From the NCBI RefSeq assembly GCF_046105845.1, contig NZ_CP151004.1: a DNA stretch of 64,000 nt; one strand, written 5' to 3'. This DNA is from Escherichia coli. Its GTDB lineage: Bacteria > Pseudomonadota > Gammaproteobacteria > Enterobacterales > Enterobacteriaceae. Every line of letters starts with the position of its first letter. Positions within the stretch are counted from its first letter, which is position 1. The position numbers were made by a program. This document shows, in pieces, positions 25,338 to 28,300 of the stretch.

Positions 25338-28300
25338 TAAGGACACGACAATGACGATTTTTGATAATTATGAAGTGTGGTTTGTAATTGGCAGCCAGCA
25401 TCTGTATGGCCCGGAAACCCTGCGTCAGGTCACCCAACATGCCGAGCACGTCGTTAATGCGCTGAATACGGAAGCGAAACTGCCCTGCAAACTGGTGCTG
25501 AAACCGCTGGGCACCACGCCGGATGAAATCACCGCTATTTGCCGTGACGCGAATTACGACGATCGTTGCGCCGGCCTGGTAGTGTGGCTACACACTTTCT
25601 CCCCGGCCAAAATGTGGATCAACGGCCTGACCATGCTCAACAAACCGTTGCTGCAATTCCACACCCAGTTCAACGCGGCGCTGCCGTGGGATAGCATCGA
25701 TATGGACTTTATGAACCTGAACCAGACTGCACATGGCGGTCGCGAGTTCGGCTTCATTGGCGCGCGTATGCGTCAGCAACATGCCGTGGTTACCGGTCAC
25801 TGGCAGGATAAACAAGCCCATGAGCGTATCGGCTCCTGGATGCGTCAGGCGGTATCTAAACAGGATACCCGTCATCTGAAAGTCTGCCGTTTTGGCGATA
25901 ACATGCGTGAAGTAGCGGTCACCGATGGTGATAAAGTTGCCGCACAGATCAAGTTCGGTTTCTCCGTCAATACCTGGGCGGTTGGCGATCTGGTGCAGGT
26001 GGTGAACTCCATCAGCGATGGCGATGTTAACGCGCTGGTCGATGAGTATGAAAGCAGCTACACCATGACGCCTGCCACACAAATCCACGGCGAAAAACGA
26101 CAGAACGTGCTGGAAGCGGCGCGTATTGAGCTGGGGATGAAGCGTTTCCTGGAACAAGGTGGCTTCCACGCGTTCACCACCACCTTTGAAGATTTGCACG
26201 GTCTGAAACAGCTTCCTGGTCTGGCCGTACAGCGTCTGATGCAGCAGGGTTACGGCTTTGCGGGCGAAGGCGACTGGAAAACTGCCGCCCTGCTTCGCAT
26301 CATGAAGGTGATGTCAACCGGTCTGCAGGGCGGCACCTCCTTTATGGAGGACTACACCTATCACTTCGAGAAAGGTAATGATCTGGTGCTCGGCTCCCAT
26401 ATGCTGGAAGTCTGTCCGTCGATCGCCGTAGAAGAGAAACCGATCCTCGACGTTCAACACCTCGGTATTGGCGGTAAAGACGATCCTGCCCGCCTGATCT
26501 TCAATACCCAAACTGGTCCGGCGATTGTCGCCAGCTTGATTGATCTCGGCGATCGTTACCGTCTGTTGGTTAACTGCATCGACACGGTGAAAACGCCGCA
26601 CACCCTGCCGAAACTGCCGGTGGCGAATGCGCTGTGGAAAGCGCAGCCGGATCTGCCAACTGCTTCCGAAGCGTGGATCCTCGCTGGTGGCGCGCACCAT
26701 ACCGTTTTCAGCCATGCGCTGAACCTCAACGATATGCGCCAGTTCGCCGAGATGCACGACATTGAAATCACGGTGATTGATAACGACACCCGCCTGCCAG
26801 CGTTTAAAGACGCGCTGCGCTGGAACGAAGTGTATTACGGGTTTCGTCGCTAAGTAGCTGCATCAGGTGTGTAACGCCTGATGCGACGCTGACGCGTCTT
26901 ATCAGGCCTACACGCTGTGATTTTGTAGGCCGGATAAGCAAAGCGCATCCGGCATTGTTTTCCCCCTCGCCCCTTTGGGGAGAGGGCCGGGGTGAGGGGA
27001 AACGACCTCTCAGGAGTCAACATGTTAGAAGATCTCAAACGCCAGGTATTAGAAGCCAATTTGGCGCTGCCAAAACATAACCTGGTCACGCTCACCTGGG
27101 GCAACGTCAGCGCCGTTGATCGCGAGCGCGGCGTCTTGGTGATCAAACCTTCCGGCGTCGATTACAACGTCATGACCGCTGACGATATGGTCGTGGTAAG
27201 CATCGAAACCGGTGAAGTGGTTGAAGGAACGAAAAAGCCCTCCTCCGACACGCCAACTCACCGGCTGCTCTATCAGGCATTCCCGTCCATTGGCGGCATT
27301 GTGCACACACACTCGCGCCACGCCACCATCTGGGCGCAGGCGGGTCAGTCGATTCCAGCAACCGGTACCACCCACGCCGACTATTTCTACGGCACCATTC
27401 CCTGCACCCGCAAAATGACCGACGCAGAAATCAACGGTGAATATGAATGGGAAACCGGTAACGTCATCGTCGAAACCTTCGAAAAACAGGGTATCGATGC
27501 AGCGCAAATGCCCGGCGTTCTGGTCCATTCCCACGGCCCATTTGCATGGGGCAAAAATGCCGAAGATGCAGTGCATAACGCCATCGTGCTGGAAGAGGTC
27601 GCTTATATGGGGATATTCTGCCGTCAGTTAGCGCCGCAGTTACCGGATATGCAGCAAACGCTGCTGAATAAACACTATCTGCGTAAGCATGGCGCGAAGG
27701 CATATTACGGGCAGTAATGACTGTATAAAACCACAGCCAATCAAACGAAACCAGGCTATAATCAAGCCTGGTTTTTTATTGGATTTTCAGCGTGGCGCAG
27801 GCAGGTTTTATCTTAACCCGACACTGGCGGGACACCCCGCAAGGGACAGAAGTCTCCTTCTGGCTGGCGACGGACAACGGGCCGTTGCAGGTTACGCTTG
27901 CACCGCAAGAGTCCGTGGCCTTTATTCCCGCCGATCAGGTTCCCCGCGCTCAGCATATTTTGCAGGGTGAACAAGGCTTTCGCCTGACGCCGCTGGCGTT
28001 AAAAGATTTTCACCGCCAACCGGTGTATGGCCTTTACTGTCGCGCCCATCGCCAGTTGATAAATTACGAAAAGCGCCTGCGTGAAGCTGGCGTTACCGTC
28101 TACGAGGCCGATGTGCGCCCGCCAGAACGCTATCTGATGGAGCGGTTTATCACCTCTCCGGTGTGGGTCGAGGGTGATATGCGCAATGGCGCTATCGTTA
28201 ATGCCCGTCTGAAACCGCATCCCGACTACCGTCCGCCGCTCAAGTGGGTTTCTATTGATATTGAAACCACCCGCCACGGTGAGCTGTACTGCATCGGCCT

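What the first reader, a model, noticed from the sequence alone, without database searches (positions are those of the whole stretch)
26854..27021. REP/BIME content in the araA-araD spacer looks shorter than in K-12
This 168-bp spacer holds two REP palindromes and a GC-rich hairpin; my recollection is that the K-12 spacer is about 280 bp. REP clusters are also present at 21465..21560, 43185..43250, 54320..54400 and 58775..58880. Copy-number change in REP arrays is a common source of strain variation.
Basis: partly seen in the sequence, partly recalled or inferred. Interest (0 to 1): 0.2.

Follow-up and report, generated by a model that had tools for sequence, protein, structure and literature searches.

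The report
Known repeat polymorphism between araA and araD
The araA–araD spacer here is 116 bp shorter than in E. coli K-12 because it has one REP pair instead of three plus a 54-bp BoxC repeat that K-12 lacks; this is a common, already catalogued strain polymorphism.

Summary
The araA–araD spacer is 168 bp (26854..27021), against 284 bp in K-12 MG1655.

The difference is two events, not one:
- K-12 carries three tandem 85-bp BIME-2-type units, each a Y-REP, a 13-nt linker and an inverted Z-type REP. The window carries one unit (−170 bp).
- The window has a 54-bp block between the last REP and the araD Shine-Dalgarno that K-12 lacks. Its 36-nt core (26964..26999) is a BoxC/PIT/"TMECO" element, identical to K-12 TMECO no. 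3 at another locus.

The copy in E. coli 042 at this same spacer is already listed by Holder et al. 2015 (Suppl. Table S8).

Among 5,426 complete E. coli genomes, 1,568 (29%) carry BoxC next to araD. In a sample of 59 genomes the spacer lengths were 284 (24), 168 (15), 199 (14) and 114 (5), plus one 284-bp spacer beside a frameshifted araD. That is 3, 1+BoxC, 2 and 1 units.

The four other REP clusters exist as listed. Two match K-12 in length and two differ (−11 bp, +33 bp).

The likely role is a structured intercistronic mRNA segment, inferred rather than shown. Predicted araD ribosome-site accessibility is the same in all alleles. This is ordinary and already known; interest is low.

The parts
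25351..26853 (+). araA (L-arabinose isomerase), 500 aa, stop TAA at 26851-26853
   Evidence: ORF list. Collinear with K-12 araA, and RefSeq annotation of matching genomes agrees.
26854..26875 (+). 22-nt leader GTAGCTGCATCAGGTGTGTAAC. It resembles a truncated Z-REP (GTAG plus 3' arm) followed by an inter-unit linker. It can pair with the 5' arm of the Y-REP.
   Evidence: Compared with the inter-unit junction ...GCGCATCCGGCATTCAAC in the K-12 and E. albertii alleles. Inverted repeat I4 at 26860-26870 / 26874-26884.
26876..26911 (+). Y-type REP, GCCTGATGCGACGCTGACGCGTCTTATCAGGCCTAC
   Evidence: Regex decomposition, inverted repeat I2 and REP scan. The assignment to type Y rests on my memory of the published consensus.
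26912..26924 (+). 13-nt tail-to-tail linker ACGCTGTGATTTT (S-type short linker of BIME-2)
   Evidence: The BIME-2 definition is taken from PMC3333891.
26925..26953 (+). Inverted Z-type (Z2-like) REP, GTAGGCCGGATAAGCAAAGCGCATCCGGC. An orthologous REP sits next to the araD SD in Citrobacter, Salmonella arizonae and Kluyvera.
26957..27010 (+). 54-bp block absent from K-12 and from all BoxC-less alleles: GTTTTCC + 36-nt core + AAACGACCTCT. The boundaries are ambiguous by 1-3 nt.
   Evidence: Alignments. A synthetic un-inserted junction matches 1,558 genomes as two pieces at 100% identity with a span of 68+54.
26964..26999 (+). BoxC / PIT / TMECO core, type B with one stem mismatch: CCCTCGCCC CTTTG GGGAGAGGG CCG GGGTGAGGG G. 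It lies on the sense strand of araBAD.
   Evidence: Fits the consensus CCCTCNCCC-N3-6-GGGNGAGGG-N3-GGGNGAGGG. It is identical to K-12 TMECO no. 3 in Table 1 of PMC4666352. The E. coli 042 copy at this locus is entry 506 of their Suppl. Table S8.
27012..27016 (+). araD Shine-Dalgarno AGGAG, 5 nt before the ATG
   Evidence: Read from the sequence. Homology with all other alleles resumes exactly here.
27022..27717 (+). araD (L-ribulose-5-phosphate 4-epimerase), 231 aa

Best explanation
The spacer is one allele of a multi-allelic repeat polymorphism inside the araBAD operon of E. coli.

Shown:
- The spacer consists of a 22-nt leader, then n copies of an 85-bp BIME-2-type unit (Y-REP, 13-nt linker, inverted Z-REP, 7-nt ATTCAAC joint), then the araD ribosome-binding site.
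- n = 1, 2 or 3 gives 114, 199 or 284 bp. K-12 has n = 3.
- The window has n = 1 plus a 54-bp BoxC/TMECO block between the last REP and the Shine-Dalgarno, giving 168 bp.

Inferred:
- Copy number changes by unequal recombination or replication slippage between the near-identical 85-bp direct repeats, or by the REP-associated transposase TnpA(REP).
- The BoxC block arrived once in an E. coli lineage, by the still unknown mechanism that spreads BoxC, and was then inherited or recombined among strains.
- In the araBAD mRNA the REP and BoxC stem-loops act as an intercistronic structured segment. It would protect upstream araBA RNA from 3' exonucleases and possibly attenuate read-through into araD, as shown elsewhere for REP/BIME.
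- The particular number or kind of hairpin makes little functional difference.
For: - Lengths: 168 against 284 bp.
- Exact decomposition of five alleles into leader, n units and tail, supported by alignments.
- Flank-only census: a spread sample of 59 genomes out of the 5,398 that matched gave 284 bp x24, 168 x15, 199 x14, 114 x5, and one 280 that is a 284-bp spacer beside a frameshifted araD.
- Direct count: BoxC abuts araD in 1,568 of 5,426 genomes. In the rest, homology starts exactly at AGGAG.
- All 27 BoxC+ rows across the two spread samples (a genome may appear in both) span 768 bp, i.e. n = 1.
- The BoxC core is identical to a published TMECO, fits the published consensus, and is already listed at this locus in strain 042.
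- The element is dispersed, with a median of 12 places per genome.
- E. albertii (n = 1) and Escherichia sp. MOD1-EC7003 (n = 3) lack BoxC here, so the insertion is derived within E. coli while n also varies between species.
- Strain-to-strain variation in BIME-2 copy number, and TnpA(REP) strand transfer in vitro, are described in PMC3333891.
- Structure: fold z-scores of -4.7 (window) and -6.5 (K-12).
- All 72 other enterobacterial araA-araD spacers examined hold a strong GC-rich palindrome.
Against: - No experiment here bears on function. The roles of mRNA stabiliser and attenuator are carried over from other REP/BIME loci.
- No sigma-70 promoter-like or intrinsic-terminator-like site was found in the spacer.
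- Holder et al. report that earlier work found no promoter or terminator activity for BoxC/PIT elements.
- The junction of the BoxC block (GGCATT | block | CAGGAG) does not match a simple insertion into any BoxC-less Escherichia allele seen. Those alleles read GGCACGAAGGAG. The history therefore needs an extra step or an unseen parent allele.
- Allele frequencies other than BoxC+ come from a sample of 59 genomes, not a full count.
- Complete RefSeq genomes are a biased sample of the species.
Confidence: 0.85

Rival explanations
1. Pure REP copy-number change: the window lost or never gained BIME units, and nothing else differs.
For: Two of the three K-12 units are indeed missing.
Against: One unit alone gives 114 bp, as in strain E41-1 and E. 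albertii. The window has 54 more bp, which belong to a different repeat family absent from K-12 at this site.
Confidence: 0.03
2. Assembly artefact: tandem 85-bp repeats collapsed from three to one in the window's assembly.
For: Tandem repeats can collapse in short-read assemblies.
Against: The same architecture, at the same 168-bp length in all 27 sampled rows, occurs in 1,568 complete genomes, including E. coli 042. Collapse cannot create a BoxC block. An 85-bp unit is shorter than ordinary reads.
Confidence: 0.02
3. Functional replacement under selection. The spacer must carry a stable RNA or DNA structure, and in this lineage a BoxC hairpin took over from two BIME units, tuning araD expression or local supercoiling.
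For: All 72 orthologous spacers in other Enterobacteriaceae carry a strong palindrome of one family or another: 40 REP, 9 BoxC, 2 both, 21 other. BoxC+ alleles were always n = 1 in the 27 sampled rows.
Against: - Total predicted stability is not conserved: -83 against -139 kcal/mol.
- The 114-bp allele with one unit and no BoxC exists in about 8% of genomes.
- Predicted Shine-Dalgarno accessibility is the same in all alleles, 0.41-0.47.
- REP-type and BoxC-type repeats are common in enterobacterial intergenic regions generally (established knowledge; not measured here), so their presence in this spacer could be neutral.
Confidence: 0.12
4. The BoxC+ spacer is an old or imported allele, brought in by recombination from another lineage or species rather than formed by insertion into a present-day E. 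coli allele.
For: - The junction equals a clean 54-bp insertion into GGCATTCAGGAG.
- That junction is found in Citrobacter, Salmonella arizonae and Kluyvera but not in BoxC-less Escherichia alleles.
- Flanks of BoxC+ genomes range from 96.7 to 99% identity to the window and are interleaved with 284-bp alleles.
Against: The Y-REP, linker and Z-REP of the BoxC+ allele are E. coli-type, differing by 1-3 substitutions from the first unit of the other E. coli alleles and clearly unlike E. albertii or MOD1-EC7003. The matching nucleotides number only 3-4 and could be coincidence. The E. coli inter-unit joint GGCATTCAAC could also be the source.
Confidence: 0.15

Closest known systems
BIME-2 arrays (Y + Z2 REPs in tandem; Bachellier et al. 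1994; Ton-Hoang et al. 2012, PMC3333891)
   Same: REPs in alternating orientation, with GTAG/CTAC ends, a short tail-to-tail linker and a short head-to-head joint. The locus carries 1-3 tandem copies depending on the strain, which is the behaviour described for BIME-2.
   Different: In this window only a single unit is present, so it is not itself a tandem array. A truncated REP-like leader abuts the araA stop codon.
BoxC / PIT / TMECO intrastrand-triplex motif (Holder et al. 2015, PMC4666352)
   Same: The 36-nt core is identical to K-12 TMECO no. 3 (type B, one mismatch). It is intergenic, multi-copy and variably present among strains. This very locus is listed for E. coli 042.
   Different: Nothing essential. 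It is a solitary copy, not an inverted pair, and it lies inside an operon 12 nt upstream of a Shine-Dalgarno, next to a REP.
REP mRNA stabilisers in intercistronic regions (malE-malF; Newbury et al. 1987, Stern et al. 1988; from my own knowledge and as cited in PMC3184786)
   Same: REP hairpins lie between cistrons of a sugar-utilisation operon, downstream of the more highly needed genes.
   Different: No decay or expression data exist here for araBAD. The role is inferred by analogy.
naRNA4 / REP325 (Rfam RF02564)
   Same: It is also REP-derived, and the Y-REP region gives a weak match (35.2 bits).
   Different: The match is below the family's gathering score of 59.5 bits, so it reflects shared REP sequence and not membership.

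Membership tests
REP / BIME-2 | Imperfect palindromes of 20-40 nt with a conserved GTAG/CTAC tetranucleotide at one end | tested here: met
   The Y-REP ends ...GGCCTAC and the inverted Z-REP starts GTAGGCC.... Stems were confirmed as inverted repeats and in the predicted fold.
REP / BIME-2 | A pair made of a y REP and a z2 REP in inverse orientation, separated by a short (S) linker | tested here: met
   The Y and Z elements lie tail-to-tail with a 13-nt linker. The definition is from PMC3333891. Typing as Y and Z2, rather than Z1, rests on consensus sequences recalled from memory.
REP / BIME-2 | Occurs as multiple tandem copies, with copy number variable between strains | tested here: inconclusive
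   Met for the locus, which has 1, 2 or 3 units in different E. coli and 3 in K-12. Not met in this window, which holds a single unit.
REP / BIME-2 | Binding and cleavage by DNA gyrase | not testable with these tools
   This is an experimental property (Espeli and Boccard 1997, cited).
BoxC / PIT / TMECO | Sequence fits CCCTCNCCC-N3-6-GGGNGAGGG-N3-GGGNGAGGG[G/T/C/-] | tested here: met
   A regex match at 26964..26998, plus the terminal G. It is identical to Table 1 entry 3 of PMC4666352.
BoxC / PIT / TMECO | Intergenic, many copies per genome, variably present among strains | tested here: met
   It lies between araA and araD. The element has a median of 12 places per E. coli genome. At this site it is present in 1,568 of 5,426 genomes.
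BoxC / PIT / TMECO | The single strand forms a purine-motif intrastrand triplex in vitro | not testable with these tools
   Holder et al. showed this for type A and type B oligonucleotides, with and without a mismatch. They did not detect a stable triplex in vivo.
naRNA4 (Rfam RF02564) | Covariance-model score at or above the gathering threshold of 59.5 bits | tested here: not met
   The best score was 35.2 bits, at 26856..26908.
Intrinsic terminator | GC-rich hairpin followed directly by a T-run | tested here: not met
   No terminator-like site was found in 26500..27400 on either strand.

The most novel reading that the evidence does not exclude
The araA-araD spacer may be under selection across Enterobacteriaceae to carry some stable GC-rich stem-loop, with turnover of which repeat family supplies it (REP, BoxC or plain palindrome). 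The E. coli BoxC+ allele would then be a functional swap of one family for another, possibly kept as an old or imported allele, as its Citrobacter/Salmonella-like junction hints.
Probability: 0.15. Interest if true: 0.35.

Novelty: already known. Interest (0 to 1): 0.1.

Why it matters
It matters little beyond correct annotation.

- Length differences in REP-bearing spacers can be compound events involving two unrelated repeat families, so REP copy number should not be assumed from length alone.
- The locus has four common, cleanly sized alleles (114, 168, 199 and 284 bp). That could make it a cheap typing marker, or a natural allelic series for testing how intercistronic hairpins set expression ratios within the widely used araBAD system.

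Tried and rejected
- **Rfam scan of the spacer.** Only sub-threshold naRNA4 hits appeared, which reflect shared REP sequence. Membership rejected.
- **Promoter and terminator scan.** Nothing found, so the spacer is not a simple terminator or internal promoter by these consensus rules.
- **Does BoxC change araD translation initiation?** Partition-function folding of five alleles gave a mean Shine-Dalgarno unpaired probability of 0.41-0.47 in all of them. No predicted effect.
- **A '280-bp allele' in the census.** It turned out to be a 284-bp spacer beside a 4-bp frameshift in araD.
- **Two-piece insertion model (48 + 6 bp around a shared CGA).** Rejected as the less parsimonious reading. 'AAACGAC' also follows the core in one other K-12 BoxC copy, and looser GAC-containing flanks follow BoxC-type elements in several genera. 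The block also behaves as one clean 54-bp insertion.
- **Literature gaps.** Bachellier et al. 1997 (PMC1207841), which may treat this locus, is not held in the library. No supplements are held for Ton-Hoang et al.. A search for papers on REPs in the araA-araD intercistronic region found none.
- **Scan of genome contigs.** It returned 75 loci, but not E. coli itself, E. fergusonii, E. marmotae or E. ruysiae. The outgroup picture within Escherichia rests on two species only.
- **Source strain.** It could not be identified. The best match among the 5,426 genomes is 98.7% identity over 20 kb.

Full report
**What is in the sequence.**

The window is collinear with E. coli K-12 MG1655 positions 93,899 to 29,582 on the opposite strand, at about 97-97.7% identity. 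araB (23640..25340), araA (25351..26853) and araD (27022..27717) are intact, followed by polB. The araA stop codon ends at 26853 and the araD ATG starts at 27022. In K-12 the same spacer runs from 66551 to 66834 and is 284 bp.

**Anatomy of the spacer.**

Aligning the two spacers shows identity over the first 103 bp and again from the Shine-Dalgarno AGGAG onwards. The middle differs.

I decomposed five alleles: the window, strains 2016C-3878, E41-1 and 2023CK-01687, and K-12. They share one simple grammar:
- A 22-nt leader.
- Then n copies of a unit made of a 36-nt Y-type REP, a 13-nt linker and a 29-nt inverted Z-type REP.
- Successive units are joined by ATTCAAC, so the period is 85 bp.
- Then ACGAAGGAGTCAAC and the ATG.

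With n = 1, 2 or 3 this gives 114, 199 or 284 bp. K-12 has n = 3.

The window has n = 1:
- Y-REP at 26876..26911.
- Linker at 26912..26924.
- Inverted Z-REP at 26925..26953.

It then carries 54 extra base pairs before the Shine-Dalgarno.

The leader (26854..26875) looks like a Z-REP that has lost its 5' arm. This is clearest in E. albertii, where it reads ...GCCGCATCCGGCATTCAGC.

By the description in Ton-Hoang et al. 2012, this is a BIME-2-type array. That description is y plus z2 REPs, a short S linker and multiple tandem copies whose number differs between strains (PMC3333891). Typing the REPs as Y and Z2 rests on consensus sequences I recall from the older literature, not on a tool result.

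**The 'GC-rich hairpin' is BoxC.**

The 36-nt core at 26964..26999 is CCCTCGCCCCTTTGGGGAGAGGGCCGGGGTGAGGGG. It fits the consensus CCCTCNCCC-N3-6-GGGNGAGGG-N3-GGGNGAGGG that Holder et al. 2015 give for the element known as BoxC, PIT or TMECO. It is letter-for-letter identical to their K-12 TMECO no. 3 (type B with one mismatch), which lies at 282,101-282,136, a different locus (PMC4666352).

None of their 23 K-12 copies lies near araA-araD. Their Supplementary Table S8 does list, as entry 506, this same sequence in E. coli 042 at 73657-73622. That position lies in the araA-araD spacer of strain 042. The locus is therefore already catalogued.

The element is dispersed. A 59-nt query finds a median of 12 places per E. 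coli genome.

According to Holder et al., the single strand forms a stable triplex in vitro. They also report that no stable triplex was detected in vivo, that earlier work found no promoter or terminator activity, and that the loci carrying it are unusually variable between strains.

**How common each allele is.**

I used a query made only of 300 bp of araA and 300 bp of araD, so that the span of each match gives the spacer length. This was a systematic spread sample drawn from the 5,398 of 5,426 complete E. coli genomes that matched; 59 of its 60 rows spanned both flanks. It gave:
- 284 bp in 24 genomes.
- 168 bp in 15.
- 199 bp in 14.
- 114 bp in 5.
- One apparent 280, which is a 284-bp spacer next to a frameshifted araD.

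A direct count with a query spanning the BoxC-araD junction found BoxC abutting araD in 1,568 of 5,426 genomes (29%). In the others, homology begins exactly at AGGAG.

All 27 BoxC-positive rows across the two spread samples span 768 bp, meaning one BIME unit. The two samples may share genomes.

Named strains show the pattern:
- K-12 and B strains have 284 bp.
- O157:H7 has 199 bp.
- Strain 042 has 168 bp, and O145 RM8843 shows a full-length 768-bp match to the window's spacer region.
- O104:H4 and O103 strains carry BoxC next to araD.

The window's allele is thus one of four common ones. Two genomes (BS-04 and HS-01) carry a decayed version that lacks the first C-rich block. This is the kind of degeneration Holder et al. 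describe.

**Direction of change.**

A scan of species-representative genomes for the araD start returned 75 loci. I could extract the araA-araD spacer from 72 of them.
- E. albertii has one unit and no BoxC (114 bp).
- Escherichia sp. MOD1-EC7003, about 95% identical to both the window and K-12, has three units and no BoxC (284 bp).

BoxC at this site is therefore derived within E. coli, while unit number varies in more than one species.

The likely mechanisms are inferences from established knowledge. Unit gain and loss would come from unequal recombination or slippage between 85-bp direct repeats, or from TnpA(REP)-mediated strand transfer as shown in vitro by Ton-Hoang et al.. How BoxC spreads is unknown.

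**An unresolved detail.**

The BoxC-positive junction reads ...CATCCGGCATT | 54 bp | CAGGAGTCAAC.

A synthetic sequence with the 54 bp removed matches 1,558 genomes in two pieces at 100% identity, with a span of exactly 68+54. The block thus behaves as a clean insertion into GGCATTCAGGAG.

Every BoxC-less Escherichia allele I saw reads GGCACGAAGGAG instead. GGCATTCAGGAG is the junction in Citrobacter, Salmonella arizonae and Kluyvera. GGCATTCAAC is the E. coli inter-unit joint.

Three readings remain open:
- The allele is old or imported.
- The block replaced three bases.
- The block replaced everything between the first unit and the Shine-Dalgarno of a multi-unit allele.

The REPs of the BoxC-positive allele are plainly E. 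coli-type, which argues against a distant origin. I could not settle this.

**Function.**

The spacer is transcribed as part of araBAD. As RNA it folds far better than shuffled controls, with z = -4.7 for the window and -6.5 for K-12. Each REP and the BoxC form separate stem-loops.

All 72 orthologous spacers from other Enterobacteriaceae (47-284 bp) also contain a strong GC-rich palindrome:
- REP-type in 40.
- BoxC-type in 9.
- Both in 2.
- Other palindromes in 21.

The Z-type REP next to the araD Shine-Dalgarno is positionally conserved across several genera.

My best account, by analogy with REP/BIME elements elsewhere, is an intercistronic structured segment. It would shield upstream araBA RNA from 3' exonucleases and may damp read-through into araD. 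The analogy rests on the mRNA stabilisation and transcription attenuation cited. This is inference and nothing here tests it.

Points against any strong allele-specific effect:
- There is no consensus promoter or intrinsic terminator in the spacer.
- Total predicted stability differs widely between alleles.
- The predicted accessibility of the araD Shine-Dalgarno is the same in the 114, 153, 168, 199 and 284-bp alleles (0.41-0.47).

**The other REP clusters.**

Against K-12:
- thiQ-yabI: same length, a few substitutions.
- folA-apaH: same length, a few substitutions.
- caiA-caiB: the linker between the two REPs is 11 bp shorter in the window.
- caiE-caiF: the spacer is 33 bp longer because the window keeps a REP that K-12 lacks.

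**Verdict.**

The 116-bp difference is therefore two events (-170 bp and +54 bp).

BIME-2 copy-number variation and TMECO presence/absence are both described in the literature, and this TMECO locus is already listed. This is an ordinary, already known polymorphism of low interest.

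Noticed in passing
window 15047..15086: K-12 has setA (sugar exporter) here: 1,261 bp at K-12 77593..78853. The window has only 40 bp, so setA is absent. Some E. coli genomes share this arrangement.
   Followed up: partly
window 17033..18042 (ORF 17268..17837, minus strand): About 1 kb is absent from K-12 between sgrR and thiB. It holds a 189-aa ORF. Matching RefSeq genomes (O157:H7, O145:H28 and others) annotate the region as T3SS effector EspY2.
   Followed up: partly
window 15087..17032 (sgrR): This region is only 93.2% identical to K-12, clearly below the 97-97.7% of the rest of the window. It is a locally divergent or recombinant segment.
   Followed up: no
window 28000..48000: None of 5,426 complete E. 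coli genomes reaches 99% identity over these 20 kb. The best is 98.7%. The source is an E. coli-clade lineage with no close relative in that collection.
   Followed up: partly
window 34346..34504: A cluster of small indels relative to K-12 lies in the yabP/yabQ region (K-12 59053..59225).
   Followed up: no
window 54368 and 58783..58830: The caiA-caiB BIME linker is 11 bp shorter than in K-12. The caiE-caiF spacer is 33 bp longer because the window has a full REP where K-12 has a remnant.
   Followed up: yes
loci L011-L085 (araA-araD spacers of 72 Enterobacteriaceae species): Every spacer holds a strong GC-rich palindrome (40 REP-type, 9 BoxC-type, 2 both, 21 other). The Z-type REP next to the araD Shine-Dalgarno is positionally conserved in Citrobacter, Salmonella arizonae, Kluyvera and Escherichia. 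Atlantibacter (L050, L076, L077) and L051 instead have a hairpin followed by a T-run, which looks like an intrinsic terminator.
   Followed up: partly
L086 (E. coli BS-04, NZ_CP172819.1 64224-64630); also H201 (HS-01): The BoxC block at araD has lost its first C-rich arm through a 15-bp deletion, giving a 153-bp spacer. It is a decayed TMECO.
   Followed up: yes
L007 (E. coli Es_ST80_L1_NDM_10_2017): araD is annotated as a frameshifted pseudogene, 4 bp short, next to a normal 284-bp spacer.
   Followed up: no
window 26954..27021, compared with L005, L012 and L048: The BoxC junction corresponds to a clean insertion into GGCATTCAGGAG. That sequence is seen in Citrobacter, Salmonella and Kluyvera but in no BoxC-less Escherichia allele examined; those read GGCACGAAGGAG. 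The origin is unresolved.
   Followed up: partly
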